From: a virus
Taxonomy: Duplodnaviria; Heunggongvirae; Uroviricota; Caudoviricetes
Virus record (IMG/VR): IMGVR_UViG_3300021400_001756
Span: 3,744-67,743 of that record
Direction: 5' to 3' (one strand)
Length of the DNA stretch: 64,000 bases
Shown: positions 10,459 through 42,483 of the stretch, piece after piece
Layout of the letters: every line of letters starts with the position of its first letter
How positions within the stretch are numbered: position 1 is the stretch's first letter
The notes under the pieces: generated by a model
The model's input: only the letters and a program-made list of their open reading frames with translations
What the model was told of the DNA's origin: nothing
Database searches by the model: none
Position numbers and translations under genes: made by a program

Positions 10459-11304
10459 CTACCTTACATCCATTACTTGACCACCCATAGCATTGTCTGT
10501 TCTATAATTAGTTCTTGAACGCATATTATCTCTTTGTAATACATCTGCTCCAGCAGTAGCAATACTAGGAAAATTAGTATTATATGTATTTTGTGTGCTA
10601 GATGAACTATAGTTCTCTATTAAATCTCTAGCTGATACAATGAAATCTGGGTAACAATCCATACTAATATCTACACTATTCCAACCATAAAATGTATTTA
10701 TGATTGGTTTTTTCCATGTAGTAGAGTAGCTTGTTACATAACCCTTTAATATCATTTGTCCAAATATAAAATATGTAGTAGGTGGTATAAGTCCACTACT
10801 TGTATATTGAGGATAACATGCCATTTGTAACATTTTATTCATACTAACATACCAAGTTCTAGTATCGAATGGACCATCTGGAGATTGCTTTTGTTTACCC
10901 GCACTTTGATATGCTGGATGTCCTCCAACACTTAGCATTACATTATTAGTTAACGAATAACTACCTGTTAAAAAGTCCCTATGAAGGTCTAAAGAAAAGT
11001 TTACAGATTTTAAACTAGTATGTGCGTAAGCTGCAATACTTGATGACCTACCTAATGGGTCTTGTTTTTCCCAAGATGGTGATATAGATTCTGTTACTTG
11101 GTCTGGATATGCAGGTATCTCTATTAAATACTCATAATCTCCTCCAACACCAAATCTATTAGGTTTACCATACTTTAGTAACATATAACACTCAAATTGT
11201 TTAAATCCAGGTATACCATTTGTTCCCCAAGCAGGTCCCCAAGCTTCATAATATTCATATCTAGTTTGGGGTGATTGCTCTATAAAATCATCGTATTCTG
11301 GCAT
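10459..11304 (-). CDS. hypothetical tail/baseplate protein
   Basis: A 281-aa ORF in the tail module. Confidence 0.5.
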   Translation of the reverse strand: MPEYDDFIEQSPQTRYEYYEAWGPAWGTNGIPGFKQFECYMLLKYGKPNRFGVGGDYEYLIEIPAYPDQVTESISPSWEKQDPLGRSSSIAAYAHTSLKSVNFSLDLHRDFLTGSYSLTNNVMLSVGGHPAYQSAGKQKQSPDGPFDTRTWYVSMNKMLQMACYPQYTSSGLIPPTTYFIFGQMILKGYVTSYSTTWKKPIINTFYGWNSVDISMDCYPDFIVSARDLIENYSSSSTQNTYNTNFPSIATAGADVLQRDNMRSRTNYRTDNAMGGQVMDVR

Positions 11305-13367
11305 TATTTGCTCACCTCCGAAATATTTTCACTCATGTTTACATCTTGTTCTAGTATAGCTTCAGACTGTACATCTAACCAGCCCAACATAAAAGATATA
11401 TTATAATTACGTAAGTTTTTAGTTGTACCATCTACTTCAGATTCTAATAATTGATAATCCAATTTGTTTACTGTACCGTCTTTATTTATATCTGCTCTGT
11501 TAATTTGTGTTTTACTAACAGGGTTGCGTTCATTATTTAAATACTCTTGTATAATAGCCAAATCTTTACTATCAATTACACCATCGAAATTAACATCTGC
11601 CTTCTGTAATTGTTTTTCTGTTAAGCTTCCTGTACCATTTAGATAGTTACTTAGTAGTGTAAAATCTTCTTGTGTTATATAGCCATCTCCATTTATATCT
11701 GAATTTAAATACTCAATTACACTACGCTCTAAAATTAAATCATCTCTGTTTATTTTACCGTCTCTATTTAAATCACCTATATCATAATAAACAACAGATT
11801 CTTGAAATTGTGTAACTAAATTTCGCATATTATCACTATACTTACCTGGATAAAAATAACTTTTATCATAAGAATGTTCTGGATATTTATCTTTTAATAA
11901 TTTTTGTAGATAAGTTATATCTTCTGAATCACTGTATTTATGAATTGCAATACCTAATAAATAGTTAAAAAATTTATCGTGTATAACCCAATCATTTTCT
12001 GTAAATTCACTAAATGGTATATTAACATCTCTACTATAGTGTCCATCTATTATCAATAAATTTTCAACATTATCTCCAGTACCTTGTATAGAATCTGTTG
12101 TATCATATTTATATGTAACATACCCTAAAGATGGTTGTGAAGATTGACCTGTAATAAATTTATATAATTCTTTAGCATCATTTACATCTATTATACCATC
12201 CTTACTAGCTTTACCATCTACACCGGGAATAGGTATATCCATAACAGCTAATTGTTTAGGTGTTGGATTCCAATGTAGTTCTTCAGAACCAGGTCCTTCA
12301 GCTGTATATCTAGCAAGTAAGTGATAATCTATCATATCTATTTTACCATCAAAGTTAATATCTCCAACACGTAATAGCATTTCTCCTTGTTCATATCCAC
12401 TTAACGAGTTATAATCTGAAGGGCATTGTATACACACATAATTGGCGTTATATCCAGTTCCTTCAGCTTTACTAGTAGTTGTATATTGATAGCCTTCTCC
12501 AGGCTTTAAATCTAATTCTTGTACGTTTTGTAATATAAAACTAGGTATATTATCTCTTAATGTAGCACTACTACATCCAATAACTAAATGTTCTGTTTTA
12601 TTACTATTGTGTGCTATTGTTATTTTCTGTCCGGGTTTACATTTATATAAAGCTATTTTATGTGTTTTAGATGTATCTGGATGAGGTAAATTATCATACC
12701 CCTCTCCATTTCTTATAGCATAATTATACATAAATGAACCATCGAATTGATTTACAAAAACTAACATATCTTTGTTAGGGAAGTAATTTTTACGAGATGA
12801 CTTTTTAATTGTTATATATAATCGTGTATTAAGTATATAATTATCAAATACTTCCAAATCTTCATCATTTACTAAGCCATCTAAATTTATATCAGCTCTT
12901 TTAGTTATTTCTGAATCATATTGCTGTATACCATTAGCTATATTATATATAATTTCTCTATCTTGAGCATCAACAACACCATCTAAATTTATATCCATGT
13001 TAGTATCAAACCAATCAAATGTATCTCCTAATTCCCATCCAACACTAAGACAGTAATTTCTAATATCATTTAATTTTCTATGAATGTATTCAGAGCATTC
13101 CATGGATAATTGTTTAGATGCGTACACAATCTCATCATCTTTAAGTTGTATACTAAATAAAGAGTGTAGTTCCGGAAATAATTGTACTATTTCACGTTGT
13201 ACTTCTGTCATTAACTTAACATTAGGTAAATTTAAATAATTAATCAAAGTATATAAATCTTCTTTTTGAAATTTACCCAATATTTTATTAGACCTTCCGT
13301 ATTCGTTATTTAAAAATCTTTTAAGATATCTAACTAAGTAGTTATCCATACCAAATTTTATATTCAT
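11304..13367 (-). CDS. tail protein with multiple dockerin-type calcium-binding repeats
   Basis: It contains eight D-x-N-x-D-G-x-(I/V)-(D/N)-xx-D repeats (DINLDGVVDAQD, DINLDGLVNDED, DINFDGKIDMID, DLNRDGKINRDD, DINGDGYITQED, DVNFDGVIDSKD, DINKDGTVNKLD and others). These are arranged in pairs, each followed by LxxYL helices, which is the dockerin type I architecture. Confidence 0.6.
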   Translation of the reverse strand: MNIKFGMDNYLVRYLKRFLNNEYGRSNKILGKFQKEDLYTLINYLNLPNVKLMTEVQREIVQLFPELHSLFSIQLKDDEIVYASKQLSMECSEYIHRKLNDIRNYCLSVGWELGDTFDWFDTNMDINLDGVVDAQDREIIYNIANGIQQYDSEITKRADINLDGLVNDEDLEVFDNYILNTRLYITIKKSSRKNYFPNKDMLVFVNQFDGSFMYNYAIRNGEGYDNLPHPDTSKTHKIALYKCKPGQKITIAHNSNKTEHLVIGCSSATLRDNIPSFILQNVQELDLKPGEGYQYTTTSKAEGTGYNANYVCIQCPSDYNSLSGYEQGEMLLRVGDINFDGKIDMIDYHLLARYTAEGPGSEELHWNPTPKQLAVMDIPIPGVDGKASKDGIIDVNDAKELYKFITGQSSQPSLGYVTYKYDTTDSIQGTGDNVENLLIIDGHYSRDVNIPFSEFTENDWVIHDKFFNYLLGIAIHKYSDSEDITYLQKLLKDKYPEHSYDKSYFYPGKYSDNMRNLVTQFQESVVYYDIGDLNRDGKINRDDLILERSVIEYLNSDINGDGYITQEDFTLLSNYLNGTGSLTEKQLQKADVNFDGVIDSKDLAIIQEYLNNERNPVSKTQINRADINKDGTVNKLDYQLLESEVDGTTKNLRNYNISFMLGWLDVQSEAILEQDVNMSENISEVSK

Positions 13368-13520: not shown

Positions 13521-16500
13521 TTAATCTTTTATTAAAGAGAATATGGATTTCATTTTTTTCATACTATTACGTGTATTTATATCGGTATCTGTTAAACTAG
13601 GATAACTATCTCCTTGTACAACTCTAATTAACTCATCTATTTTATTACACAATGTTGTAGTTTGGTCTTGTATAATAGTTTCAAAGTTGTAAGATTGATG
13701 TTTAGTATCTCTGTATTCCGATACTAAAGTTCTTAACTCGTTTGCCGTACTTGCTGTTAATACTGCTTCATCCTCATGTAATAATGCTGGGTAATTATCA
13801 TAAGGTACACGATTTAAACCTCTTCTTAATAAGTTAAAGTCTTTCTTAAGTGCTTCTTGCTGGTCATCTCTATCTGGAAAACCTAAATAATTGTAACCAT
13901 CTCCCGTCATTAAATGTACATCATACTTATGTAAAAATTTAAATATATCACGTAATTGCTCTGCACGAGTTATACCAGCTGTATGTAGAGCATCACCTAA
14001 TGCTGATTTATTGTTACTTAAATCTTCAAAATTTAATTCCTCACTGATAGGACCCATAATATCTGATTCCCCAGCTAAACCTTGATACATTGCCGCAATT
14101 TGTAAAGCCGCAGCTACACTCGCTACATTTATACCACTATAAGATTTCTCATGTAATAAAGAGGCTAACATTGCCAATAGTAATTTATTGTATTCTCGGT
14201 CTTTATGATTTCTTTTAAAATCCTCTAAGGCATTACCAGCTTCCTTAGAACCTGATAAATACCAATGTTTAGTTATACCATATTTTTTAGCTGTATTATC
14301 ATCTGACCAGTTAAACATTCTAAGTAATTGATTTTTATAGTATTCTGTACCATAATCCCCATTATTTCCAATGCTGTGGAACATTCCTCCTATTTCCGCC
14401 CCTACGTCTGAAACGCCAACAGCATTAAAAGATAACATATTATTATTGTGAGCCCCAGCTTCTTGACGTTCTCTTGCACCATATGCCTCCTTTGCTCCTT
14501 TAGTATTAGAAATAGTGCCAGACGCTACAGCATAATTTATAGCTTTTTGTTTTGCATCTTTATCCTTAGAATCTTCATCTTTTTTACGACTTTCTGCTGC
14601 AATTCCAGATGCAACAGCTGCTAAAGCTGCAACACCTACACCTACACCTGCTACAGCTAAACCTATTGGTCCTGTAGCTGCTAAACCAGAACCTATAGTT
14701 TTTATCAATCCGCCACTAGCTGCTAATCCCTTACCGCCGGAACCTCCAATCATACCTGCTATATTACCTATACCATCAGTAAATATCTTAGTGATGAGGA
14801 TGGTGCCAATACTTTTAATTGCATCTACTATTAAATCTCCTACAACACCCATCTTTGCTTGTAATTTTGCCATTTCTGTACTTATATTTTCCATAGTTAA
14901 CTCTTGCATCTCTTTTTCAGTGTTGTAAATACCATCAACTAAGTTTTGTGTTTCTTGTTCACTTGCTGCTACAACTTGTTCCTTAGTTAAGTTTGTTTGG
15001 TCTACCAAAGATGAACCAGTTATACCTTTCTCCTTTAATTGATACATTGCTCTTCTATTGCCAGGATTAATACCTAAAGCACTACCTACAATGTTAGTAG
15101 TTAATCCCTGTCTTGCATTACCGTATCCAGGAGCGTTACCCATTAACATCATATCTGCATCAACCATGACACCCATAGCATCATTCCATTTTGTTGGGTC
15201 CTCGTAGTCAATACCCTGAGCTATATTATTGATAACATGCATCTTTTGAGCAACTGTACCGTTTTGTATCATTGAATCAGAATAATTCATCATTTGGAAC
15301 AATTCTTTTCCATATGATTCTGCTACATCTTTACTAACTCCTTGTTTTATAAGAGAGTTCACATAAGCAGTAACTTCTGCTGAACCTTGTGCTAAATCTT
15401 CCAGTGCTTTATCAGATATTGGTTGTACCTCGTTAATAATGGTATTTAACATATCCTGAGTAGCATAATTATTACCGGCTATCTCTTTATTAAGTACATT
15501 TATTCCTCTAATATCCTTAACAAACCTATTATCCAATCTATTGTTGATAAGGCTAAATTCTGTACTTGTTGTATCCAAATAAGGTACTATTTTTTGAGTA
15601 ACTACTGTATCTAAAGCCGATTCAAATACTTGTCCCTCACTCATACCGGTTTTTGCTAAAACATCCCATTGCTCCATAACTGTGGATGTACCAACATTAT
15701 CTATTAAACCAGCAGATTTAATATTTCTGTTGGCATTGGTCCACTGACTTCTATATGTATCCCTATTTATATTCAAACGTGCGGCTACACTATCATAAGT
15801 ATTATTATAAGCATCTACTTGTTTTTGTGCACCACTAAAAAATAAATCCATAAATTTTTTAGCTACGCTAGATAAAAGTTTACCTGCTTCGTTAAGTACA
15901 TCTCCAGCTAAACTTAATTTTTTATTTGCATCATCTCTATTTTTATTAGCTTTTTTAGCTTCTGGACTTTTTAATCTATCTTCTTCTAATCGTCTTTCGG
16001 CAATTTCACGAACTTTTGACTCTTCTATGTTGTGTCCTTTATCTTGTAATCTTTTTAAAATTGCTTTAGTCTCATTATTTAAAACTTTTTCCTGTGAATT
16101 AAAGATACTTTTATCTCTAACATACGAACCCCAATTTAAAATACCATAATTTTTAAACTTAGGTCCTTGTTTATTAAGTTGTTCTTGTTTTAATCTTCTA
16201 GCTTCTTCAGCTCTTTCTTGTTGTCTTTGTCTTACTGTTTTTTGTGTAGTTTTTTGACCTTTCTCTAATTGTTGATTTTGCTGCTTAAGGATATTTAGTA
16301 ACACTAATGCTTCATTAGCTTCTTTTTGCATAGCTTTTAGAGAATTTTCATCTATACGAGCACCTTCTGTCTTAATTTTTATGCTCATACCCTCTAAACT
16401 ATTTATTATTTTTTGTTTTTTGTCAATCCAATTTTCTACCTCTTTACTAGATGAATCTGCGAAATTATCTAGTAGATTATTTAGTTGTGTTAACATATCT

Positions 16501-16580
16501 GCAGCTTTTTGTAAGTTGTCTATATCTACCATACTCCAACTTTTTCCAAGAGCTGATATTGATTGTTTTCCTTTAGGCAT
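13521..16580 (-). CDS. tail tape measure protein
   Basis: It is 1019 aa with an N-terminal coiled coil, a central Gly/Ala-rich hydrophobic segment and a long helical C-terminus, and lies upstream of the baseplate genes. Confidence 0.8.
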   Translation of the reverse strand: MPKGKQSISALGKSWSMVDIDNLQKAADMLTQLNNLLDNFADSSSKEVENWIDKKQKIINSLEGMSIKIKTEGARIDENSLKAMQKEANEALVLLNILKQQNQQLEKGQKTTQKTVRQRQQERAEEARRLKQEQLNKQGPKFKNYGILNWGSYVRDKSIFNSQEKVLNNETKAILKRLQDKGHNIEESKVREIAERRLEEDRLKSPEAKKANKNRDDANKKLSLAGDVLNEAGKLLSSVAKKFMDLFFSGAQKQVDAYNNTYDSVAARLNINRDTYRSQWTNANRNIKSAGLIDNVGTSTVMEQWDVLAKTGMSEGQVFESALDTVVTQKIVPYLDTTSTEFSLINNRLDNRFVKDIRGINVLNKEIAGNNYATQDMLNTIINEVQPISDKALEDLAQGSAEVTAYVNSLIKQGVSKDVAESYGKELFQMMNYSDSMIQNGTVAQKMHVINNIAQGIDYEDPTKWNDAMGVMVDADMMLMGNAPGYGNARQGLTTNIVGSALGINPGNRRAMYQLKEKGITGSSLVDQTNLTKEQVVAASEQETQNLVDGIYNTEKEMQELTMENISTEMAKLQAKMGVVGDLIVDAIKSIGTILITKIFTDGIGNIAGMIGGSGGKGLAASGGLIKTIGSGLAATGPIGLAVAGVGVGVAALAAVASGIAAESRKKDEDSKDKDAKQKAINYAVASGTISNTKGAKEAYGARERQEAGAHNNNMLSFNAVGVSDVGAEIGGMFHSIGNNGDYGTEYYKNQLLRMFNWSDDNTAKKYGITKHWYLSGSKEAGNALEDFKRNHKDREYNKLLLAMLASLLHEKSYSGINVASVAAALQIAAMYQGLAGESDIMGPISEELNFEDLSNNKSALGDALHTAGITRAEQLRDIFKFLHKYDVHLMTGDGYNYLGFPDRDDQQEALKKDFNLLRRGLNRVPYDNYPALLHEDEAVLTASTANELRTLVSEYRDTKHQSYNFETIIQDQTTTLCNKIDELIRVVQGDSYPSLTDTDINTRNSMKKMKSIFSLIKD

Positions 16581-16615: not shown

Positions 16616-16632
16616 TCAATAATATTTTACAC
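16616..16632 (-). promoter_or_regulatory. conserved promoter-like motif (GTGTAAAATATTATTGA)
   Basis: About 36 nt upstream of the tape-measure start. Confidence 0.4.
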
Positions 16633-16678
16633 TATTTTTGTATATGTAAATTTTTCAAAATATTTTACGTTAAGGTAT

Positions 16679-16707
16679 TTACATTTTTTAAAATATATGT
16701 TATACTA
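16679..16707 (+). promoter_or_regulatory. sigma-70-like promoter for the plus-strand island (TTTACA-N17-TATACT)
   Basis: Consensus-like -35 and -10 elements lie about 60 nt upstream of the aagggaggtg RBS and the ATG at 16768. Confidence 0.4.
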
Positions 16708-16767
16708 TATATAATAAAATAAATTATTGATTTAAACAAAGTTTATAATTTAAGGGAGGTGTAATAT

Positions 16768-17007
16768 ATGAAAGTGAAAGATGTATATAAAAAATACAAA
16801 GGATATACAATAATGTTATTTGGAAAACCTCTAAGTGAATCAAGTACACCATTTACACACTTACCTAAAAATAAAGACTTAAATGAATGTACTGTAGTAG
16901 ATATAAAAGTAGAAGAACGAAAGCAAACAATAATATCATTCAATATAAATTTAACAAAAGGTAAAAAAGAGGAATCTTTAGGAGATGTTTATTGTTATAT
17001 TAAATAA
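16768..17007 (+). CDS. hypothetical protein, first gene of the plus-strand island
   Basis: Strong RBS aagggaggtg, 79 aa. Confidence 0.55.
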   Translation: MKVKDVYKKYKGYTIMLFGKPLSESSTPFTHLPKNKDLNECTVVDIKVEERKQTIISFNINLTKGKKEESLGDVYCYIK

Positions 17008-17024
17008 AAAAGGGGGTGTTTATT

Positions 17025-17573
17025 ATGTATGACCCAAACAGACCACATGCAAATGATTATAAGTACAGAAATTTACCATTTCAAGAGAAATTAGCTCAAT
17101 CAGAAAGAGATGCAATGTTATATGATATTCAACAATCATTAAAAGCTCAACAAAATAATAATGCTAGTTCTACAAATTACTCAAGTTCTACCAGTCATTC
17201 AATTCCAACTGGAACTGGATATTATTTAACATCAAACAACTACACTAAAAAAGATTTAAGAAAATTGGACAGATTAGAAAGTTATTCATTCAGTTTACTT
17301 ACACCTACATTTTTAGCTTTATTTGCAACTGTGATAGTTGGAGTAACTGTAATGTTTAACTCAACAGCAGATGATAATTTACCATTTTATATTTCAGCAG
17401 GTTTTTTAGTAGTATTTGGAGGATTACACATTATAGTTAATGTAATTAAAGCTTATATGCAAACAGAATATTATATCGAAAAACATCATGATGAAGTAGT
17501 TAGAGAAAATAGAGAATTAGTTAAAAGAGCAAGACAACAGCAATTAGAAAGAGAATCAAGAAGGGAGGAATAG
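17025..17573 (+). CDS. membrane protein (two predicted transmembrane helices)
   Basis: A probable start at the second ATG, with an aggggg RBS. It has an S/T/N-rich N-terminal region, hydrophobic segments LLTPTFLALFATVIVGVTVMF and FYISAGFLVVFGGLHIIVNVI, and a charged C-terminus. Confidence 0.55.
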   Translation: MYDPNRPHANDYKYRNLPFQEKLAQSERDAMLYDIQQSLKAQQNNNASSTNYSSSTSHSIPTGTGYYLTSNNYTKKDLRKLDRLESYSFSLLTPTFLALFATVIVGVTVMFNSTADDNLPFYISAGFLVVFGGLHIIVNVIKAYMQTEYYIEKHHDEVVRENRELVKRARQQQLERESRREE

Positions 17574-17577
17574 CTAT

Positions 17578-17976
17578 ATGATTATAAGAGTTACATTTAA
17601 CAACAATGATTACCAAAATTTGTTGGAAAGTCAGTTTAAATATGGATTATCTACATCATTTTTAACAGTTAAATCTCAATATATTAGCAGTGAATCAGAA
17701 GAAGCTTTGAAAAAATACAAGGATATAAGTGTGTTGCAGGATAGTATATTTCATAAATTAAACAGTGAAAAGGAACTAACTTTAGAAGAAAAACAACAGT
17801 TAATAAATATTATTAAGGAAGCCTATAAAATCGTTATAGAAAGTCAATATAAAAATAGTAAATCTTATTTATTAAATAGCTTAACTGTAGATATCATAAA
17901 CAGTTTTAAAGATAAATGGGAGAATGGAGAAGTATTATATTACTTTTCATCGGCAGATAAATTTATTATAGAATAG
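17578..17976 (+). CDS. hypothetical protein
   Basis: A 132-aa ORF coupled to the upstream gene (the stop and start are 4 nt apart). Confidence 0.5.
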   Translation: MIIRVTFNNNDYQNLLESQFKYGLSTSFLTVKSQYISSESEEALKKYKDISVLQDSIFHKLNSEKELTLEEKQQLINIIKEAYKIVIESQYKNSKSYLLNSLTVDIINSFKDKWENGEVLYYFSSADKFIIE

Positions 17977-17989
17977 GAGGTGAATTGTT

Positions 17990-18153
17990 ATGACAGATAA
18001 AGAAAAATATATAGCTTATGAAAAAGTAAGAAGAAGTGGTGTAACAAATATGTTCGATATAATTACTGTAGAAGCATTAAGTGGTTTAAGTAAAGAAGAT
18101 ATAATTTATGTTATGAAAAACTACACAGAATTAAATAAAAAGTATAATTATTA
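17990..18153 (+). CDS. small hypothetical protein (about 54 aa)
   Basis: An aggaggtg RBS lies 7 nt upstream. It is below the track's size cut-off. Confidence 0.4.
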
Positions 18154-18182
18154 AAAATTACGTTATAAGAAGGTGAAAGTTT

Positions 18183-18603
18183 ATGAGACTATGGCATTAT
18201 AAATTAATCCCAGTATTACCTAATAAAATGTTGGTTAGTCAATGGCGTAAATGTATAGCTATTAAAAGACAATGGGAAAGACGGTACATTAAAAAACAAG
18301 TTGGTTAATTATGTTATGGACCACCCTAAAAGTTATTTTATAGACTATGTAATATATATAATAACTGAGATGGACAATAGAAAAATTAAATATCAAGGTA
18401 AATATTATTTAGAAATTCTTCATTTTTGTAAAAAAGTTAATGGAAATTATATGTATCCAGAACATAATAACAGATATCTGTTACAATGTTACTATAACTT
18501 ACAAGAACAATACGACCGTGGTATTATAAATGAGTTAGAATGGAACAGAATTAAAGAAACTGTCAATGTTGCTAAATGTTTAATGTACAGTAACGACACA
18601 TAA
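18183..18603 (+). CDS. TIGR02328-family (Pyr_excise-related) protein, interrupted by a +1 frameshift in an A6 run near 18291-18296
   Basis: The N-terminal frame reads MRLWHYKLIPVLPNKMLVSQWRKCIAIKRQWERRYIKKQVG*. The continuation LVNYVMDHPKSYF... is in the +1 frame (track ORF 18301..18603). Homologs, as I recall them, read MRLWHxxLIPxLPRQQLLGQHRE....VNYVFKHSP as one continuous protein. Confidence 0.55.
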
Positions 18604-18604
18604 T

Positions 18605-18645
18605 AAATTAAAAAAGTAAGTGTATTTAAACACCTACTTTTTATT
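18605..18645. terminator. bidirectional rho-independent terminator
   Basis: An imperfect hairpin agtaagtgt-attta-aacacctact is flanked by an A-run and a T-run, between convergent genes. Confidence 0.5.
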
Positions 18646-18888
18646 TTTTGCATTATCTAATGCTTTACGTTTTGCTTCATTTTCTTCTTTCTTTAATTCT
18701 ATAAGTTTATTGATAACATAAATTCGTTCATACTCATCCATATTATTTGTATCCTCAAAACTAATTCCAGAAGATAATTGACATATAACTATTTGTTGGT
18801 CTAGGATATCATTTAGGTCCTCTTTATTGTATTGATTTTTCTTTTCTTTGTACTCTTTATTTTTAGAATCATTAGATATCCTCATCAC
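18634..18888 (-). CDS. hypothetical protein (charged, coiled-coil)
   Basis: 84-aa ORF. Confidence 0.45.
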   Translation of the reverse strand: MMRISNDSKNKEYKEKKNQYNKEDLNDILDQQIVICQLSSGISFEDTNNMDEYERIYVINKLIELKKEENEAKRKALDNAKNKK

Positions 18889-19663
18889 TGGGATTGAATA
18901 GTTCGTATGTTATAGGTAAACCATGTGTTACTTCACTTTTACACTTAGGACAAAGTGTTTTTAAATCTTGAGATAAACCATAATCAGCACTTAACTTATT
19001 TATAGCTTTTCTTAGTGTTTTAAAGTCTACTATATCCATACTGTTAATATAATCTTCTTTTTCCTCTGCTAATAGTGTTTTACCATTAACCTTATCTATA
19101 TATATTAAATTAGTTTCTGTAAGTAACTTTTCTTGTCTATTAACATTAGGAAATCTATCGAAGAATTCTTCAAGAGTTTCTCCTAACTTAATAAGTTTAT
19201 TTAAATTTGGTACATCTAAATCTATTGTTTGTTTAGATATAGGTAACGTTACTTTTAGCTTATCTTTAATATCATCTGTTAAGTAATCTACAGGAACATC
19301 TGATAAATGAATTTCATGTATAAATTGAGCACCACAATGTGGACATGTAACTGTTACTTTGTATTTATCTGTTAATAAGCTTAATACCCTTAGTTTAAAT
19401 AATAAAAAGTTTGCATCCGATAACTTTAATTTTCCACAATCAACTGGAACTTGTGATACAATACAAGCATTTAATAAATCTTTAGTTACTTGTGTGTTGT
19501 CGTCACTTCTATATCTTAATTTTTCCTCAGCTGTTGTCATTCTTCTTAGTGTGATTGCTTCAGGTATACCATCCTCAGGTTTGTATAACAAACCTCTACT
19601 AGGTAATGTAAATGTATCCTGTTGTTTAATATTAGTTATTTCTGGCATAATGTCTTTTTCCAT
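18872..19663 (-). CDS. hypothetical protein with two CxxC pairs (zinc ribbon)
   Basis: CPHCG ... CPKCK. It lies directly downstream of the terminase large subunit gene. Confidence 0.5.
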   Translation of the reverse strand: MEKDIMPEITNIKQQDTFTLPSRGLLYKPEDGIPEAITLRRMTTAEEKLRYRSDDNTQVTKDLLNACIVSQVPVDCGKLKLSDANFLLFKLRVLSLLTDKYKVTVTCPHCGAQFIHEIHLSDVPVDYLTDDIKDKLKVTLPISKQTIDLDVPNLNKLIKLGETLEEFFDRFPNVNRQEKLLTETNLIYIDKVNGKTLLAEEKEDYINSMDIVDFKTLRKAINKLSADYGLSQDLKTLCPKCKSEVTHGLPITYELFNPSDEDI

Positions 19664-19723: not shown

Positions 19724-21850
19724 CTAGATTATAACCATTCCGTCACTAAACATATTATTATACATATTTAACAATTGTTCATCAGATAATTGTGAATCAC
19801 TATTTGTTTTTCTTATATTACTTAATATTTGATTATCTCGTTCTATTTGTTTATTTATATTTTGTTCTATTACATCCTCATCGTCTGTAACATCAATTGT
19901 TTGAAGTTTATTATTTTGAACGAATGAAAAATATTTATCTGCAACATTCTCATTAGGATTCAATGTTAATATATCCGAATTAGTATTACTTGTAAGTGTT
20001 ACGTTTTCCATATAATCTAGTTCATCTAAATTAACACTTAATACAGCATTATATATAGCTCCACCTATACTATCTGAAATATCTTTTCCAACAGATTTAA
20101 CTTTAGTTCCATCTTCTAATATTTTTATAGATTGTTTAGGGTGGTCTACTTTACCTGTAGCTTCATTTTTCTCTAGATTAGTTATTTCTCTAATTAGTTC
20201 CTGTATTTTTAATAATTTAATTCGTTGTTCCACTAAAACATTTCTAAATGTAGTGTATCCAATACATTCTTTATTCTTAATAATATCCATAGATACTTCT
20301 TTTACATCAAAACCATCTAATTTTAAACTTTGTAATAACATTAAGCTTTGGTATCCATCACAACTTACACCTACAATGTTCCAACCTAAATCATACTTTA
20401 AGTAGTGTATAAAATCTTTAACTTTTATCATACTTAATTCATCATTAGCTGGACATTGTATACCTACAGAGAACACGTGTCTAAATACCATTTCCTTTAA
20501 TAAACTTGTATCTCCTGTATCTGTATATCTTTCTTGGTTTTTATAACCTAGAACAGCAACTGCACTTATTCCTGTCATATCCCCACTTTTAGATAAGTCA
20601 CAGTGAATATAAATCTTTTTACTATATAACATAATTGGAACTAATTGAGGTAAGAAATAATCTTTAATTTGATTTTTATCCGCCATACCTGTTTTTATTA
20701 TTTCAGAACTAAATGGGTTTACTCCCTTACCTATACAAGGCTCTACTAATCTATAAGGTATATATTTATAACTGGATTGTACTGCTATACCACAAGTATC
20801 AATAAGTGTTCTATTTAAATCCATTTCAAATCTATGTAACATTTCTAAAGGGATATCTATTACTTCATATCCTTTCATTTCTGCCTCTTCAATCTCTTCT
20901 TTACTTACATTTGTGCCCATTATATAACTTGTTAACAATTCATTACCAACCGCTAATTTAAACCATTTACCACTAAACATACTTAATGGTTTTACTTCCC
21001 ACTGTTTATATCTACTTACATGCATTCCAGGTTGACCTTCGTTATCTCTAATGAAACTTTCTAATACAGCATTTGTAGATTTAGCAGAACTGATGAGGTA
21101 CATTCTACCTTGAATTCTACCACCTTTCATAAAACGTGAAGATAGACGTAAATATAACTGATTGTATATTTGCATCATTCCTGCTTGCATGTACTCAACA
21201 TTATCATTATCTCCAAAAGACATTTCATCTATGGCAACAAATTGAACAGCAACAGATAATGCGTGTTCCTCTGTAGAACCAATACCAAGTCTAATGTCTT
21301 TTTTAGGTTGATATACTAAATTTGTTCTTCCAGTAACAGTACCTCGTTCCATAAACCACGGACTCATTTGTAAAGCTTTTTGAAATTTACCCCACATTGT
21401 TTTTTCTGCTAATTTTAAATTAAGGTTAAAAAATAAAATCCAAATAGTTTCATTTGCTTCCAGATAATATCTGTTTGGATTTTTAAGACACATTAACTTA
21501 TACAATTCATAACATAAAGAGTATGTTGCCACAGTTGATTTACCTGTACCTGTACTTCCAGTTATTGCCCACTGGTCCACAAAGTTTATTGGATTGTGAA
21601 CATAATATAATTCTTTTTTCCAAGTTTCATAGATATCCTTACCGTAGTTAGTGTACTTACCTAAGTACTGCTCATTACTTAAAAATGTCCAAATATCTAC
21701 AGGTATTTCCTCATAATCATCATAATATAAATTATCTAATTTTTCGGATGAACCATTTTGTATTAAGTCACCCATAATAGATTTAAGTTCATTAATCTCA
21801 CTTTCACTTAATTGTGTTAGCGTTTTTAAATCTGTATCATTCTCTAACAA
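19724..21850 (-). CDS. terminase large subunit
   Basis: A Walker A motif ITGSTGTGKST and a Walker B motif VAIDEMSF are followed by the IHCDLSKSGDMTGISAV nuclease-like region. The architecture is co-linear with T4 gp17. It has a TTG start with a ggaggt RBS. Confidence 0.8.
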   Translation of the reverse strand: MLENDTDLKTLTQLSESEINELKSIMGDLIQNGSSEKLDNLYYDDYEEIPVDIWTFLSNEQYLGKYTNYGKDIYETWKKELYYVHNPINFVDQWAITGSTGTGKSTVATYSLCYELYKLMCLKNPNRYYLEANETIWILFFNLNLKLAEKTMWGKFQKALQMSPWFMERGTVTGRTNLVYQPKKDIRLGIGSTEEHALSVAVQFVAIDEMSFGDNDNVEYMQAGMMQIYNQLYLRLSSRFMKGGRIQGRMYLISSAKSTNAVLESFIRDNEGQPGMHVSRYKQWEVKPLSMFSGKWFKLAVGNELLTSYIMGTNVSKEEIEEAEMKGYEVIDIPLEMLHRFEMDLNRTLIDTCGIAVQSSYKYIPYRLVEPCIGKGVNPFSSEIIKTGMADKNQIKDYFLPQLVPIMLYSKKIYIHCDLSKSGDMTGISAVAVLGYKNQERYTDTGDTSLLKEMVFRHVFSVGIQCPANDELSMIKVKDFIHYLKYDLGWNIVGVSCDGYQSLMLLQSLKLDGFDVKEVSMDIIKNKECIGYTTFRNVLVEQRIKLLKIQELIREITNLEKNEATGKVDHPKQSIKILEDGTKVKSVGKDISDSIGGAIYNAVLSVNLDELDYMENVTLTSNTNSDILTLNPNENVADKYFSFVQNNKLQTIDVTDDEDVIEQNINKQIERDNQILSNIRKTNSDSQLSDEQLLNMYNNMFSDGMVII

Positions 21851-21882
21851 TATTTGTCTACCTCCAAAACATATCTTGTTTT

Positions 21883-21899
21883 CGTTAATATTTTACAAG
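21883..21899 (-). promoter_or_regulatory. conserved promoter-like motif (CTTGTAAAATATTAACG)
   Basis: About 33 nt upstream of the terminase TTG start. The same 17-mer occurs at 27852. Confidence 0.4.
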
Positions 21900-22169
21900 A
21901 TTTTATAGAATTTGAAATTTAGGTATTTACAAAACAAATCTATCATGTTATATTATCTATTGATGAACATACATTGTATACACAGAGTTAATTTATTATT
22001 TTTTAGTACTTAATAATTTATCTGTTAGTTCCAAAGGCTACAAATCTAGTTGTATTTATTTGTGTGTTTGTCGAATTATAACTTTGAAAGTTTACTATAA
22101 AATAGTTTTTGGGCCACTACATCAATAAGTTATGCAAGCTTTTATTCTATATAACGGTATACGAGTCCG

Positions 22170-22241
22170 AAAATCACAAAATTAAATTTCATGTGAACTA
22201 TTCCATTAAATCACGAAATTAAATATTCATGTGAACTATAT
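22170..22241. repeat. two tandem imperfect 36-bp direct repeats (aaatcacRaaattaaatWttcatgtgaactat...)
   Basis: Seen directly in the 600-bp non-coding gap between the tube and terminase genes. Confidence 0.6.
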
Positions 22242-22420
22242 TAGAACAAAAATTATTTATAGTAAAGCTTTCGTTTTTAAATTCATAAAGTGTGGTAATT
22301 TGTTGTAGGAGACAGACTATTACACTTTTTTAATTTTTAATAATGTAATTACATTATTTGTTGTTTAAAACTTGTTATTTTTGATTGTAGTACGAAATAA
22401 AGACATTTTTAAAGATAATA

Positions 22421-22452
22421 AAAAGGATACATTTTATTGTATCCTTTTTATT
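22421..22452 (-). terminator. rho-independent terminator after the tail tube gene
   Basis: A hairpin aaaggatac-N8-gtatccttt has T-runs on both sides. Confidence 0.55.
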
Positions 22453-22456
22453 TTTA

Positions 22457-24775: not shown

Positions 24776-26149
24776 TTATTTAAGTTTTTTAATTAACTTA
24801 CATTCTACTAAATTGTCTTTAGTAATAGTTAACATAGAAAAGTTACCTAAACTTTCATTTTTCATCTCTGTTGTTTTGTATTTAGCAACCCCTCTTGAAT
24901 CTACAATTTTGTTCATTTTAAATTCTATAGATTCCGTTTTATTTTCTTTTCCTTTTATGTTTCCTTTTACACAAATTCCATCATCTGATTCTGTTATAGA
25001 CTCTGTTTCAAATCCTTCCCAATTTGGGTCACACTCTTCACAATATTTTGAAAATTTCTCATCAAATAAATCAATTGTTAGTTCATCATCAGCTTCAACT
25101 TCTGTATCCTCTACTTCTGTTTCATCTGTAGCTTCTTCACATTCTCCATCTTCGCATACATCATTTTTTAGTGAATCTAATTCTGATTGTAGTTCACTTA
25201 ATTTATCTGTAAGTTCTTTAATTTTATCCTCTACAGTAGGTTCTTCTTGAACTTCTTGTGTATCATCAACTTCTTGTGTATCATCAACTTCTGTTGTATC
25301 TTCACTAACTTCTGTTTCAATTTCTTTTGATTCTTCAATTTCTTCAGTCTCTTCAACTTCTACAGTTTCTAGAGCATTATCAATGTTGTAATCTAAAGAA
25401 TCAACAACACTATCGTATACTTTATTAACTATTTCATTATCTTCAAAATCATTAACATCTATTTTATCTTTTAAATCTTGTCTCTTATTTATAATTTCAT
25501 ATGCTAAGAATTTCTTAAAGTCATATTCATCTTCTATCCATTCTTGTAACTTTTTAGATTCTGTACATTTTTCTGCTGTACCTTCTTTTTTACAAGATTC
25601 CTCTACTTCAAAAGATTCTTTATACCAATTTGTTATTTCATCTGTATTTATTGATGTTACATTAACTAAATCTGACCAAAAAGATTCTTCCATTCCTTGG
25701 TCTATATAATCTTGATGTATATCTTTAAGCATTTCATCATAATCTTTGTCTAAGCTAACTTCAACATCCTCTTTCTTAATTTTCTTTGATTCCTCAACAA
25801 CTTCCTCTGTTTCTCCTTCGACAACTTCCTCTGTTTCTTCTGGAGAAATGTCTTCAACTGGTGTATCTTCCACAGGAATTTCTTCGATAACTTCTGCTTG
25901 TTCTGCTGTATCTACAATTGCATCATCTGTTGTATTATCTACAACTGTAACAGTTTCATCGCCCATTATAATTTCAGTTTTTTTATCATCAATTGAAACT
26001 ACAGTATCGTCATTTGCTATTGCTATTGATTCTTCTAAATCTTTTTTATTGTTTTTTGATAATTTTTGTGGTTTTTCTATTTCGCAACTTTCTTCTAATT
26101 TACCTTGTAAAGCTAATTTAGTTGCCTCTAGTAAACTAATTTTTGACAT
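24776..26149 (-). CDS. highly acidic virion-associated protein carrying the conserved N-terminal leader (LLEATKLALQGKLEE)
   Basis: The N-terminus MSKISLLEATKLALQGKLEESCE matches the leader of the 42.6-48.4 kb cassette. The central region is D/E-rich with an 18-bp tandem repeat (TQEVDD x3). Confidence 0.55.
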   Translation of the reverse strand: MSKISLLEATKLALQGKLEESCEIEKPQKLSKNNKKDLEESIAIANDDTVVSIDDKKTEIIMGDETVTVVDNTTDDAIVDTAEQAEVIEEIPVEDTPVEDISPEETEEVVEGETEEVVEESKKIKKEDVEVSLDKDYDEMLKDIHQDYIDQGMEESFWSDLVNVTSINTDEITNWYKESFEVEESCKKEGTAEKCTESKKLQEWIEDEYDFKKFLAYEIINKRQDLKDKIDVNDFEDNEIVNKVYDSVVDSLDYNIDNALETVEVEETEEIEESKEIETEVSEDTTEVDDTQEVDDTQEVQEEPTVEDKIKELTDKLSELQSELDSLKNDVCEDGECEEATDETEVEDTEVEADDELTIDLFDEKFSKYCEECDPNWEGFETESITESDDGICVKGNIKGKENKTESIEFKMNKIVDSRGVAKYKTTEMKNESLGNFSMLTITKDNLVECKLIKKLK

Positions 26150-30551: not shown

Positions 30552-30605
30552 TATATCTCCTCCAAACTTAATACAAATTATAACATATATTTTAAAAAAT
30601 GTAAA

Positions 30606-32983: not shown

Positions 32984-33059
<76 letters not shown>

Positions 33060-33069
33060 GTCATTTAAA

Positions 33070-33155
33070 TGGTGGGCAGTTCTAGATTCGAACTAGAGAA
33101 CTCAAATGAGACCAGATTTACAGTCTGGCGGTTTTAACCACTCACCCAACTGCCC
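33070..33155 (-). tRNA. tRNA-Tyr (anticodon GTA), class II long variable arm
   Basis: Acceptor gggcagt/actgccc, anticodon loop ctgtaaa, a long variable arm and an encoded CCA. Confidence 0.65.
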
Positions 33156-33164
33156 AAAAACAAA

Positions 33165-33240
<76 letters not shown>

Positions 33241-33954
33241 ATATAAACTGTGTTAACTTTTTGACGTCCAAAAGTTAATATACATACCCACAGTTAAGTA
33301 TTGGGTTATAGAGGACTAACCCTCAATCCTGTAACATTTTAAAACCAGGTTCACTGGAAGTTGTACACACTTAGAATCACTTACTATCGGAAAGTAACTC
33401 TCAGAAACCGTTATTCATCTTGAATAATAGTCAACTTACAATTATATTCTATGATTTTTCGTTTGTAGTAACGAAGTGTATCTTTAGCACATAGTTACCA
33501 TAGACTACACCAAATCTATGCCCTCCTCGGTCAGGCGCCGTCAATATACTTTAAGTGTTTCATATTGATGAAGTACGGTTATTTACGTGGTTCCCACGAG
33601 AGCTTTATATTCTTTATAAAGTTGAACGGCTTCGATGCTCTGCTCCTAACAATCTTATCTATAATATAATTATAAAATTACATGTTGTACTACATATAAA
33701 TACTACATTTCTTTCTAAACATATATTATAGATTGGAGTAATAGTTTTTGAAATGAACTATTAAAGAAACATTTCTTATTTCAATAAGAGGTTATTCTGT
33801 CTCTCCAGAATGTCACGTTGCTACTTAATACACTGCTTACTCACCACAACGTTTATACCGAGCACTCTTGCCGTGTGTACTTGACTCTTGGACTTTATCC
33901 TACTTTACCAAGAATAGACTATACGGAGTGTTACTGTATAGGTAGGGCCTAAAG

Positions 33955-34029
33955 TGGTGACGCTACTGTGAGTTGAACACAGCACTTTGGAATGAAAATC
34001 CAATGGCTTAACCGACTGCCCCTAGCGCC
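33955..34029 (-). tRNA. tRNA-Glu (anticodon TTC)
   Basis: Acceptor ggcgcta/tagcgtc and anticodon loop ttttcat. Position 8 is G, the D-stem is weak, and the CCA is encoded. Confidence 0.55.
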
Positions 34030-34047
34030 ATATATTAAATTAAAATA

Positions 34048-35057: not shown

Positions 35058-35136
35058 AAATCTTATAAAATTGTGTAAGGTAGGTTAGGGTTCCTACCTT
35101 ACGGACGTTAATAATTTTGATAGCACTAACACTATC

Positions 35137-42422: not shown

Positions 42423-42483
42423 AAACTATTTATTATAAAATAAGTATAACATATATTTTAAAAAATGTAAATAACAAAATAAT

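What the first reader, a model, noticed from the sequence alone, without database searches (positions are those of the whole stretch)
16679..18645. Opposite-strand, self-contained gene island (own promoter and terminator) inserted between the terminase and tape-measure genes
The island runs from the TTTACA-N17-TATACT promoter to the bidirectional terminator. It has five plus-strand genes, including a two-TM membrane protein with an S/T/N-rich cytoplasmic tail and a TIGR02328 (Pyr_excise-related) protein. All flanking structural genes are on the minus strand. This is the typical layout of a moron or accessory island, for example superinfection exclusion or host-interaction functions expressed independently of the late operons.
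Basis: inference. Interest (0 to 1): 0.6.

Follow-up and report, generated by a model that had tools for sequence, protein, structure and literature searches.

The report
Early-promoter accessory gene slot in phage
A small block of genes that runs against the flow of a rumen phage's tail genes is real, but it is a conserved early-expressed slot holding one clade-wide membrane-protein gene plus swappable passenger genes (one already broken), which is a fairly ordinary way for large phages to carry accessory genes.

Summary
Between a tape-measure-like gene and a gp26-like hub/terminase block, all on the minus strand, lies a plus-strand unit (16678-18642). It has a sigma70-like promoter, five ORF units with strong ribosome-binding sites, and a bidirectional hairpin terminator.

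Three corrections:
- The fifth gene (Pyr_excise/TIGR02328-like) is split by a +1 frameshift in an A6 run and carries Lys where relatives have the catalytic Glu23. It is probably a decaying gene.
- The S/T/N-rich stretch of the membrane protein is a linker between a conserved N-terminal domain and the two TM helices, not a tail.
- The 29-nt promoter is the phage's own. Two more copies drive minus-strand operons at 30.6 and 42.5 kb. It differs from a second motif (GTAAAATATTATTG) found upstream of the structural genes.

Comparison with about 60 related loci shows the slot is empty in distant relatives. It is occupied in every relative whose hub protein is at least 50% identical. The membrane protein belongs to an uncharacterised family that is always there, on the opposite strand. 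The other genes vary, and one (w132) sits in a different operon with the same promoter in a relative.

So "moron" is only partly right. This is a small hyperplastic region with a conserved anchor gene. The biochemical function is unknown.

The parts
16678..16706 (+). Sigma70-like promoter of the island (TTTACA-N17-TATACT, with TG before the -10). It is one of three copies of a 29-nt phage promoter in the window.
   Evidence: It is identical or near-identical at the same place in L011 and L013. Consensus sigma70 promoters sit at the equivalent place in more distant relatives.
16768..17007 (+). w79, a 79-aa protein of unknown function and the first gene of the cassette.
   Evidence: no family match. 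A 96% identical homologue is in L011. Paralogue-like 61-85-aa genes (41-47% identity) sit at other positions of the cassette in L013 and L014.
17025..17573 (+). w182, the anchor gene. It has a conserved N-terminal domain of about 40 aa (RPxxxDxKYxxLxxxEKxxQxERDxxLY), an S/T/N-rich disordered linker, two TM helices (about 87-115 and 119-145) and a charged C-terminal helix.
   Evidence: Remote homologues lie in the same opposite-strand slot in related phages.
17578..17976 (+). w132, a 132-aa protein of unknown function and a mobile passenger gene.
   Evidence: A 62% identical homologue sits in a different operon in L062, driven by the same promoter, with homology limited to the ORF itself. There is no paralogue in the window. 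The AF2 model is unusable (pLDDT 43).
17990..18154 (+). w54, a 54-aa protein, DUF5049-like below threshold.
   Evidence: Pfam DUF5049 24.7 bits against a cut-off of 28.7; phrog_8677 E 2.6e-5. Absent from the L011 cassette.
18183..18603 (+). Pyr_excise/TIGR02328-like gene, disrupted. The +1 frameshift lies in the A6 run 18291-18296. Lys replaces the Glu23 that relatives keep.
   Evidence: Relatives L011 and L014 read QWREC and stay in frame through this site. The second ORF has no Shine-Dalgarno sequence.
18611..18642 (.). Bidirectional hairpin terminator shared with the convergent 84-aa gene.
   Evidence: An equivalent hairpin closes the cassette in L001.
16617..16630 (-). Putative late-type promoter motif GTAAAATATTATTG for the divergent tape-measure-like gene. 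It marks the island's left boundary.
   Evidence: 13 of 14 matches (up to 2 mismatches) are on the minus strand, all intergenic, from 2 nt inside the called start (one case) to 135 nt upstream of minus-strand gene starts; 6.05 +/- 2.4 expected. Conserved upstream of the tape-measure gene in relatives.
30577..30605 (-). Second copy of the 29-nt promoter (1 mismatch), upstream of a CxxCxxCC-domain gene in the ligase region.
42443..42471 (-). Third copy of the 29-nt promoter (identical). It is preceded by a stem-loop and lies upstream of a run of small genes of unknown function.
   Evidence: (I1: 92-nt similarity including the leader). In L062 this operon carries the w132 homologue.

Best explanation
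**What the island is.** It is a small hyperplastic (accessory-gene) slot in the virion module of a large, distantly T4-like rumen phage. It is not a recently captured foreign moron.

**How it is transcribed.**
- A sigma70-type promoter belonging to the phage's own repeated promoter class drives the unit. This most likely gives early, host-RNA-polymerase transcription.
- Transcription runs against the surrounding structural genes, which carry a different, putatively late motif.
- A bidirectional hairpin stops both this transcript and the convergent hub operon.

**What it holds.**
- One gene, w182, is the conserved anchor. It belongs to an uncharacterised family defined by an N-terminal cytoplasmic domain of about 40 aa. 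In most members this domain is tethered to the membrane by a two-helix hairpin with a charged cytoplasmic tail.
- A member of this family occupies the same opposite-strand position in every phage of the clade.
- The other genes (w79, w132, w54, Pyr_excise-like) are passengers gained, lost, reordered and exchanged gene by gene. At least one has moved between operons that share the same promoter.
- The Pyr_excise-like passenger is being lost in this lineage (frameshift plus loss of the catalytic Glu).

**Shown.** The anatomy, the promoter repetition, the synteny, the cargo turnover and the frameshift.

**Inferred.**
- Early timing.
- The N-in/C-in topology of w182.
- That w182 acts at the cytoplasmic face of the membrane through its N-domain.

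**Function of w182.** My best single guess is an early membrane-level function directed at phage DNA entry or handling (superinfection exclusion of the Imm or gp15 type). I give that only about 0.25-0.3.
For: **Transcription unit.**

**Promoter class.**
- The 29-mer occurs three times in the window where none is expected.
- The other two copies sit in non-structural regions.
- A distinct GTAAAATATTATTG motif lies upstream of the tape-measure, terminase, fibre and prohead-protease genes and others.
- Both motifs are conserved in relatives.

**Phage type.** Gp23, Peptidase_S77, gp13 and T4_baseplate domains; 8-9 tRNAs.

**Slot survey.**
- Hub, small gene and tape-measure gene are contiguous in about 18 loci with hub 26-36% identical.
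- An opposite-strand gene or cassette is present in all 9 IMG/VR loci of that clade that extend past the slot, 1 MAG locus, and the 12 further metagenome-collection loci that extend past the slot, all with hub at least 50% identical.

**Anchor family.**
- Only 4 close homologues among 5.8 G proteins.
- Only 4 remote ones among 1.84 G representatives.
- Two of the remote ones (P0005, P0006) lie in exactly this slot.
- The N-domain HMM hits the slot gene in L019-21, L056-61, L068-70, L074 and L080.
- hhalign of type I against type II full-length gives 95% probability, E 2e-8.
- L074, L080 and L063 bridge the subtypes.

**Cargo turnover.**

**Composition.** No anomaly.

**Pyr_excise decay.**

**Precedents.** PeSL-mediated shuffling in T4-like phages (PMC2839356, PMC4122927). 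The HK97 gp15 moron next to the tape-measure gene (PMC3594210).
Against: - No expression data. "Early" and "late" rest only on promoter motifs.
- The island's copy of the promoter has no adjacent stem-loop as in canonical PeSLs. The w132 relocation is bounded by the ORF ends, not by promoter repeats. Promoter-mediated recombination is therefore not demonstrated.
- Homology between the type I and type II N-domains is weak on the N-domain alone (hhalign probability 8%). The full-length score may be inflated by the TM segments.
- Some family members have no TM helices (L025, L026, L071, L080). Membrane tethering is therefore not essential to the family.
- The tape-measure identity of the 1019-aa gene is inferred from size, position, synteny and hydrophobic segments only.
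Confidence: 0.7

Rival explanations
1. Classical moron. A self-contained unit (promoter, genes, terminator) was acquired horizontally as a block and expresses a host-benefiting or exclusion function independently of the phage programme.
For: - The unit has its own promoter and terminator.
- The slot is empty in distant relatives.
- The cargo differs between relatives.
- The HK97 gp15 moron lies at an analogous position next to the tape-measure gene.
Against: - The promoter is the phage's own repeated 29-mer.
- Composition is not deviant.
- The membrane gene is conserved and syntenic across the clade.
- Genes turn over singly, not as a block.
- The phage looks virulent-type: T4-like modules, tRNAs, and no integrase or repressor domain in the Pfam annotation of the 64 kb. 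Prophage expression, which is central to the moron concept, probably does not apply.
Confidence: 0.12
2. w182 is a superinfection-exclusion or 'immunity' protein. It is made early and inserted in the membrane, and it blocks genome injection by related phages. Its specificity is linked to the neighbouring tape-measure protein.
For: - Two predicted TM helices and a sigma70-type promoter.
- Adjacency to the tape-measure gene, as for HK97 gp15, an inner-membrane protein whose exclusion depends on the phage tail region.
- Between the window and L012 the linker and TM part of w182 is only 58% identical in DNA, while the flanking genes are 97-100% identical. This mosaic pattern fits arms-race loci.
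- T4 precedent of early exclusion genes imm and sp (general knowledge).
Against: - The best conserved part is the predicted cytoplasmic N-domain, not the external loop.
- Some family members lack TM helices.
- One member carries a cytoplasmic FtsK-gamma DNA-binding domain.
- No similarity to any known exclusion or defence family.
Confidence: 0.27
3. w182 is a host-takeover or DNA-handling factor. The conserved N-domain binds a cytoplasmic host or phage partner at the membrane. Possible roles are interference with cell division or the nucleoid, or anchoring of phage DNA as phi29 p16.7 does. Membrane tethering or a coiled coil provides localisation.
For: - The predicted cytoplasmic N-domain is invariant across the close homologues and remains the best-conserved part in remote ones, with interchangeable C-terminal modules: charged helix, coiled coil, FRQNHY domain, FtsK-gamma.
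- Core-like conservation within the clade.
- A putative early promoter.
Against: - No partner is known.
- No homology to known takeover proteins.
- The FtsK-gamma member (L055) lies on a 4.3-kb contig of unknown nature.
Confidence: 0.28
4. w182 is a class II-like holin or lysis-timing protein, and the island is part of the lysis system.
For: - Two TM helices with predicted N-in/C-in topology and a highly charged C-terminus.
- No canonical holin-endolysin pair was recognised in the window.
Against: - There is a 90-aa N-terminal extension.
- The promoter is sigma70-type and not the motif shared by the structural genes.
- No endolysin is adjacent.
- Family members without TM helices exist.
- Other membrane-protein candidates exist elsewhere: a 72-aa one-TM protein at 40498-40716 and a 3D-domain protein with N-terminal TM segments at 55300-56142.
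Confidence: 0.08

Closest known systems
Hyperplastic regions and PeSL (promoter-early stem-loop) cassettes of T4-like phages (Arbiol et al. 2010, PMC2839356; Comeau et al. 2014, PMC4122927)
   Same: - Repeated strong sigma70-like promoters sit in front of small ORFan genes.
- A few such units lie inside the virion module.
- Terminator stem-loops insulate them from late genes.
- Closely related phages differ by gene-sized insertions, deletions and replacements at these places.

In this window there are three copies of a 29-nt promoter, the copy at 42.5 kb has a stem-loop just upstream, and w132 has moved between two operons that carry this promoter.
   Different: - The phage is only distantly T4-like, comes from the rumen and is probably a phage of Clostridia (dockerin fibre; MAG label).
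- The island's promoter copy has no adjacent stem-loop.
- The recombination junctions seen are at ORF ends, not in the promoter.
- The slot has a conserved anchor gene and is inverted relative to the whole 64 kb.
HK97 gp15 moron (Cumby et al. 2012; review PMC3594210)
   Same: An independent transcription unit with its own promoter and terminator, wedged next to the tape-measure gene and encoding a small inner-membrane protein.
   Different: - HK97 is a temperate siphovirus.
- gp15 is a YebO-family protein expressed from the prophage.
- The HK97 element is absent from close relatives and deviates in composition.

Here the membrane gene is clade-conserved, lies on the opposite strand, is unrelated in sequence, shows no compositional deviation, and sits in what is probably a virulent phage.
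T4 early exclusion genes imm and sp (general knowledge)
   Same: Small membrane proteins made from early promoters in a virulent T4-type phage.
   Different: No sequence similarity was detected, the genomic position differs, and the function here is untested.
T4 endonuclease V / Pyr_excise (PF03013) and TIGR02328
   Same: The repaired fifth ORF matches Pyr_excise from position 1 (39.8 bits, cut-off 23). It also aligns over the whole TIGR02328 profile.
   Different: - The TIGR02328 score of 53.7 bits is below the curated cut-off of 121.15.
- The ORF is frameshifted.
- Lys stands at the position where T4 endonuclease V and relatives L011 and L014 have Glu23.

Membership tests
Moron (Juhala/Hendrix sense, as summarised in PMC3594210) | Own promoter and terminator flanking the inserted gene(s) | tested here: met
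   Promoter at 16678-16706 and bidirectional hairpin at 18611-18642. Sequence-level evidence only.
Moron (Juhala/Hendrix sense, as summarised in PMC3594210) | Present in one phage and absent from the same place in related phages | tested here: inconclusive
   Absent in distant relatives (hub 26-36% identical). Passenger genes vary. The w182-family gene is present in all relatives with hub at least 50% identical.
Moron (Juhala/Hendrix sense, as summarised in PMC3594210) | Nucleotide composition different from the surrounding genes | tested here: not met
   Island 25.3% GC against 28.1% for the window. Island genes are 21.8-28.9% against 27.0 +/- 3.1% for small minus-strand genes.
Moron (Juhala/Hendrix sense, as summarised in PMC3594210) | Expression from a repressed prophage | not testable with these tools
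   No lysogeny genes appear in the Pfam annotation of the 64 kb. T4-like modules and a tRNA cluster suggest a virulent phage.
PeSL-type hyperplastic region of T4-like phages | Repeated sigma70-like early promoter motifs in front of ORFans | tested here: met
   Three copies of the 29-mer where none is expected. All precede small genes of unknown function.
PeSL-type hyperplastic region of T4-like phages | Stem-loop terminator combined with the promoter in one composite motif | tested here: inconclusive
   A stem-loop lies about 20 nt upstream of the -35 at the 42.5 kb copy, also in L062. None lies next to the island copy or the 30.6 kb copy. The island ends in a separate hairpin.
PeSL-type hyperplastic region of T4-like phages | Indels or replacements between relatives bounded by the repeated motifs | tested here: inconclusive
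   w132 lies in the island here and, in L062, in the operon driven by the same promoter. Homology there ends at the ORF boundaries.
PeSL-type hyperplastic region of T4-like phages | T4-type phage background | tested here: met
   Gp23, Peptidase_S77, Phage_T4_gp13 and T4_baseplate domains. The relationship is only distant: terminase at most 35% identical to any cultured phage and no DNA match.
TIGR02328 family | Whole-protein score above the curated cut-off (121.15 bits) | tested here: not met
   Fragments score 25.3 and 24.4 bits. The repaired ORF scores 53.7 bits, profile positions 1-116 of 120.
Pyr_excise (PF03013, T4 endonuclease V-like) | Domain match above the gathering score | tested here: met
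   The 41-aa fragment scores 26.9 bits and the repaired ORF 39.8 bits against a cut-off of 23.
Pyr_excise (PF03013, T4 endonuclease V-like) | Intact reading frame and catalytic Glu23 | tested here: not met
   +1 frameshift at 18291-18296. The window reads QWRKC where L011 and L014 read QWREC. Equivalence to T4 endonuclease V Glu23 is inferred from the shared register in the Pfam match.
Known superinfection-exclusion or defence protein families (YebO/gp15, Imm, SieA, PADLOC set) | Sequence membership in a described family | tested here: not met
   No hits for w182 or the other island proteins in Pfam, PHROGs, NCBIfam, PADLOC or PDB beyond noise.
Known superinfection-exclusion or defence protein families (YebO/gp15, Imm, SieA, PADLOC set) | Exclusion phenotype on expression | not testable with these tools
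   Needs the (unknown) host and phage.
Class II holins | Small two-TM protein with a charged C-terminus, late expression, next to an endolysin | tested here: not met
   The two TM helices and charged tail are present. Against membership: 182 aa with a 90-aa N-terminal extension, a sigma70-type promoter, no adjacent lysin, and TM-less family members.
DUF5049 (PF16468) | Score above the gathering cut-off (28.7 bits) | tested here: not met
   w54 scores 24.7 bits, and only residues 11-30 are matched.

The most novel reading that the evidence does not exclude
The conserved opposite-strand gene encodes a new family of early phage proteins. Its 40-aa N-terminal domain acts at the cytoplasmic face of the membrane on incoming or resident DNA: exclusion of sibling phages at the injection step, or capture of DNA as hinted by the FtsK-gamma fusion. 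Its rapidly exchanged TM module co-evolves with the adjacent, equally fast-evolving tape-measure protein. Gene and target would thus be kept together as a linked pair.
Probability: 0.2. Interest if true: 0.55.

Novelty: new member of a known kind. Interest (0 to 1): 0.33.

Why it matters
**What it shows.** The promoter-cassette style of accessory-gene turnover, described so far for T4-like phages of Gram-negative bacteria, also operates in an uncultured clade of large rumen phages that is distantly T4-like and probably infects Clostridia.

**What it offers.** It flags one uncharacterised protein family that this clade always keeps in a fixed, inverted position beside the tape-measure gene. The family has a conserved N-domain and usually a two-TM anchor. 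It is a concrete candidate for an early membrane-level function such as exclusion or takeover.

**Limits.** This is a tidy example rather than a surprise. No new principle is required to explain it.

Tried and rejected
**Searches that found nothing.**
- Megablast of 13.5-22 kb against 50,697 phage records gave no match.
- tblastn of the tape-measure-like protein gave no match, so its identity stays inferred.
- Pfam, PHROGs, NCBIfam, PADLOC and PDB sequence searches of the island proteins, and Pfam, PHROGs and PADLOC searches of relatives' cargo, gave nothing beyond the Pyr_excise and sub-threshold DUF5049 hits.
- BLASTP of the L011 Pyr_excise-like protein against T4 endonuclease V gave no alignment. 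Only the Pfam profile links them.
- Rfam found nothing but tRNAs in the window.
- A metagenome scan with the w182 alignment found no confirmed locus.
- The word-index search for w79 returned one near-identical protein only.

**Structure prediction.**
- The AF2 model of w132 had pLDDT 43 and was unusable.
- The w182 model shows only a helix, a linker and a TM hairpin.
- No fold search was run, because the matches would be meaningless.

**Ideas rejected.**
- The frameshift as an assembly artefact. It is present in several assemblies, although those are 100% identical and probably come from one study. It is also present in L012, from another sample, with a diverged w182.
- Programmed frameshifting. 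It cannot be excluded at an A6 run. It is made unlikely by the Glu23-to-Lys change and by an independent disruption of the same gene in L011 (a 28-nt insertion).
- w132 as a duplicate of a gene elsewhere in the window. No paralogue was found.
Full report
**1. What is in the sequence**

The window is AT-rich (28% GC) and almost entirely coded on the minus strand. Of 75 ORFs of at least 50 aa, 69 are on the minus strand. Pfam marks on identical public contigs show a large, distantly T4-like phage:
- Gp23 major capsid protein
- Peptidase_S77 prohead protease
- Phage_T4_gp13
- a T4_baseplate (gp26-like) hub protein
- DNA ligase
- an RNA-ligase-like (RLIG1-domain) gene
- a tRNA cluster

No cultured phage matches at the DNA level. 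The best terminase match is 35% identical. Contigs 100% identical to the window come from sheep-rumen data sets.

The only real plus-strand coding block is 16768-18603. Its layout:

| Feature | Coordinates | Strand |
|---|---|---|
| Tape-measure-like gene (1019 aa) | 13521-16580 | minus |
| w79 | 16768-17007 | plus |
| w182 | 17025-17573 | plus |
| w132 | 17578-17976 | plus |
| w54 | 17990-18154 | plus |
| Pyr_excise-like gene | 18183-18603 | plus |
| 84-aa gene | 18634-18888 | minus |
| Hub gene | 18872-19663 | minus |
| Terminase large subunit | 19724-21850 | minus |

The tape-measure assignment is inferred from size, synteny and hydrophobic segments. No family or BLAST match supports it.

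**2. Promoter and terminator**

TTTACA-N17-TATACT with an extended-10 TG lies at 16678-16706. Promoter-like hits in general are no more frequent here than in shuffled sequence. This particular 29-mer, however, occurs three times in the window against none expected:
- at the island (plus strand)
- at 42443-42471 (minus strand, identical)
- at 30577-30605 (minus strand, one mismatch)

The two other copies precede small genes in non-structural regions. The similarity to the 42.5 kb copy extends over 92 nt, including the leader (I1).

A different motif, GTAAAATATTATTG, has 14 matches with up to 2 mismatches. Thirteen are on the minus strand and all thirteen are intergenic, from 2 nt inside the called start (one case) to 135 nt upstream of minus-strand gene starts. 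These include the tape-measure-like, terminase, dockerin-fibre and prohead-protease genes (6.05 +/- 2.4 expected anywhere). I read this as the phage's late-type promoter and the 29-mer as its sigma70-type, probably early class. This is an inference from motifs, by analogy with T4.

Both motifs are conserved in relatives in the divergent region between the cassette and the tape-measure gene. Some relatives have perfect TTGACA-N17-TGnTATAAT promoters in front of the cassette.

The hairpin at 18611-18642 folds on both strands (z -3.3 and -4.7) with U-tracts on both sides. An equivalent hairpin closes the cassette in L001.

**3. The five genes**

- **w79** has no family match. It recurs as diverged copies (41-47% identity) at other positions of the cassette in L013 and L014.
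- **w182** has an N-terminal segment that is invariant among its close homologues (residues 1-35). This is followed by a hypervariable S/T/N-rich linker that AF2 leaves disordered (residues 45-73), two TM helices and a charged C-terminal helix. Positive charges before TM1 and after TM2, and an acidic loop between them, predict both ends in the cytoplasm (inference). The S/T/N-rich piece is therefore a linker, not a tail.
- **w132** has four homologues and no family.
- **w54** is DUF5049-like below threshold.
- **The fifth gene** is broken. A 41-aa ORF matches positions 1-34 of TIGR02328 and a 100-aa ORF in the +1 frame matches positions 39-116.
  - Deleting one A from the A6 run at 18291-18296 gives a 139-aa protein. 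It aligns over the whole TIGR02328 profile at 53.7 bits, below the cut-off of 121, and passes Pfam Pyr_excise at 39.8 bits against 23.
  - The second ORF has no ribosome-binding site.
  - The window reads QWRKC where L011 and L014 read QWREC. In the shared register with T4 endonuclease V this is the catalytic Glu23 (inference).
  - L011 carries a different lesion in the same gene, a 28-nt insertion.
  - The frameshift allele is also present in L012, a different sample with a diverged w182.
  - I conclude that the gene is decaying. Low-level frame restoration at the A-run cannot be excluded.

**4. Related loci: the key test**

Loci were anchored on the hub gene: 38 from IMG/VR, 19 from metagenomes and 2 from genomes, plus loci fetched by exact protein look-ups.

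- **Distant relatives (hub 26-36% identical).** Hub, a 50-90-aa gene and a 750-1500-aa gene follow each other on one strand with no credible opposite-strand gene between them in about 18 loci (L034, L041 and L042 show only short, spurious-looking minus-strand ORFs there).
- **Close relatives (hub at least 50% identical).** Every locus that extends past the slot has an opposite-strand gene or cassette between the small gene and the long gene.
  - In many it is a single gene of 151-207 aa with the same architecture as w182.
  - An unbiased profile search of 1.84 billion representatives with the w182 alignment found only four remote relatives. The two whose contigs showed phage context (P0005, P0006) lie in exactly this slot and orientation.
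  - An HMM of the N-domain (RPxxxDxKYxxLxxxEKxxQxERDxxLY) hits the slot gene in L019-21, L056-61, L068-70, L074 and L080.
  - A second subtype (RPGWIDSRYKDYSW..DAQNTWDL) is not hit by that HMM. It aligns full-length by hhalign (95%, E 2e-8, with a caveat for TM bias; N-domain alone not significant).
  - Intermediates bridge the two subtypes. L074 has an intermediate N-domain. L080 has a type I N-domain with the C-terminal FRQNHY domain otherwise seen with type II. L063 has type II with two TM helices and FRQNHY.
  - C-terminal modules are interchangeable: charged helix, long coiled coil without TM, or an FtsK-gamma domain in P0007 (Pfam 1.7e-22).

w182 therefore belongs to a clade-conserved, syntenic family, which I call the anchor.

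**5. The rest is cargo**

Cassette contents in relatives:

| Locus | Cassette content |
|---|---|
| L001-L003 clade (terminase 75% identical) | Unrelated genes of 65, 126-129, (88) and 298-329 aa |
| L011 (about 78% DNA identity) | w79, w181, a new 70-aa gene, Pyr_excise; no w132 or w54 |
| L013 | Membrane gene first, then a w79-like gene |
| L014 | A second w79-like gene, then Pyr_excise directly after |
| L012 | An extra upstream gene |

In L062 a 62% identical w132 homologue is inserted in the operon that starts with the identical 29-nt promoter. That operon corresponds to the 42.4 kb operon of the window. Homology to the window's island is confined to the ORF. The window has no second copy.

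Between the window and L012, w79, w132, w54 and the 5' part of Pyr_excise are 97-100% identical. The linker and TM part of w182 is only 58% identical. This is a sharply local allelic replacement.

Island composition is unremarkable.

**6. Interpretation**

Three points argue against a captured moron:
- The promoter is the phage's own.
- The composition is native.
- One gene is fixed in the clade.

The closest description is a small hyperplastic region of the kind described for T4-like phages. There, repeated sigma70-like early promoters with stem-loops (PeSLs) precede ORFans, sometimes inside the virion module, and mediate gene-sized shuffling (PMC2839356, PMC4122927). The match is incomplete. 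Only one of the three promoter copies has an adjacent stem-loop, and no breakpoint was seen inside a promoter.

The HK97 gp15 moron is a positional analogue. It is an inner-membrane exclusion protein encoded next to the tape-measure gene (PMC3594210). It is unrelated in sequence and context.

**7. Function**

No island protein matches a known exclusion, defence, holin or takeover family.

For w182 I weigh three readings:
- **Early membrane-level exclusion.** Supported by position, membrane anchoring and the mosaic TM module.
- **A cytoplasmic-face takeover or DNA-handling role.** Supported by the conserved cytoplasmic N-domain, TM-less and FtsK-gamma variants, and core-like conservation.
- **A holin.** Weak: the promoter class is wrong, no lysin is adjacent, and TM-less relatives exist.

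None is tested. I give the first two about equal weight.

**8. Verdict**

The feature is real and its anatomy well supported. The mechanism of expression is inferred from motifs and the biochemical function is unknown. It is a new member of a known kind of phage genome feature and of moderate interest only. The uncharacterised anchor family is the part most worth an experiment.

Noticed in passing
window 42634-48362 and 24776-26149 (minus strand): Six or seven genes share a conserved N-terminal segment of about 25 aa (MNxKDRLxExTMLALQGKL...), seen as DNA repeat families D1 and D3. They lie beside the Gp23 and prohead-protease genes. This may be a capsid-targeting or propeptide sequence like that of T4 internal proteins.
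   Followed up: no
window 11304-13367 (minus strand): The 687-aa protein directly after the tape-measure-like gene carries Dockerin_1 repeats (DINLDGxVD motifs, repeat family D4). Relatives L059-L061 have the same. A dockerin-bearing tail fibre suggests a cellulosome-type (cohesin-bearing) rumen host.
   Followed up: no
window, 13 sites on the minus strand (e.g. 2358-2371, 16617-16630, 21883-21896, 51857-51870, 54517-54530): The conserved intergenic motif GTAAAATATTATTG lies upstream of structural and other minus-strand genes. It is a candidate phage-specific late promoter, reminiscent of T4's TATAAATA.
   Followed up: partly
window 21851-22456: A 606-nt gene-free stretch lies between the terminase gene and a 239-aa gene. 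It has a strong hairpin at 22417-22452 and a plus-strand promoter-like site at 21926-21954. No Rfam family matches.
   Followed up: partly
window 32984-35228 (minus strand): A cluster of 8-9 tRNA genes (Thr, Tyr, Asn, Glu, Pro, Met, Gln, Ser, plus one found only by Rfam at 34989-35055).
   Followed up: no
L025 (913 aa), L063 (850 aa), L071 (1214 aa), L027 (1077 aa) against window 19724-21850 (708 aa): Terminase large-subunit ORFs of relatives vary greatly in length. This suggests inteins or other inserts, as annotated in the best cultured match, Bacillus phage vB_BceM-HSE3.
   Followed up: no
L011 (ERZ27291637 k119_1077507): This relative has several split genes: terminase 587+95 aa, gp13-like 122+135 aa, and Pyr_excise with a 28-nt insertion flanked by GGTAATTAT repeats. 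Either the genome is degenerate or the assembly has errors.
   Followed up: partly
L024-L026, L056-L058, L063, L077-L081, first gene of the opposite-strand cassette: A second recurrent small family (65-78 aa, EFTLICMKLKSGKEVYLAEGPG...FETEKEAE) occupies the first position of the cassette in many relatives. The window lineage has the unrelated w79 there instead.
   Followed up: partly
L055 1228-2121 (P0007): One member of the w182 family carries a C-terminal FtsK-gamma DNA-binding domain after the two TM helices. It lies on a 4.3-kb contig next to a BLIP-domain gene, and the context is not identifiable as phage.
   Followed up: partly
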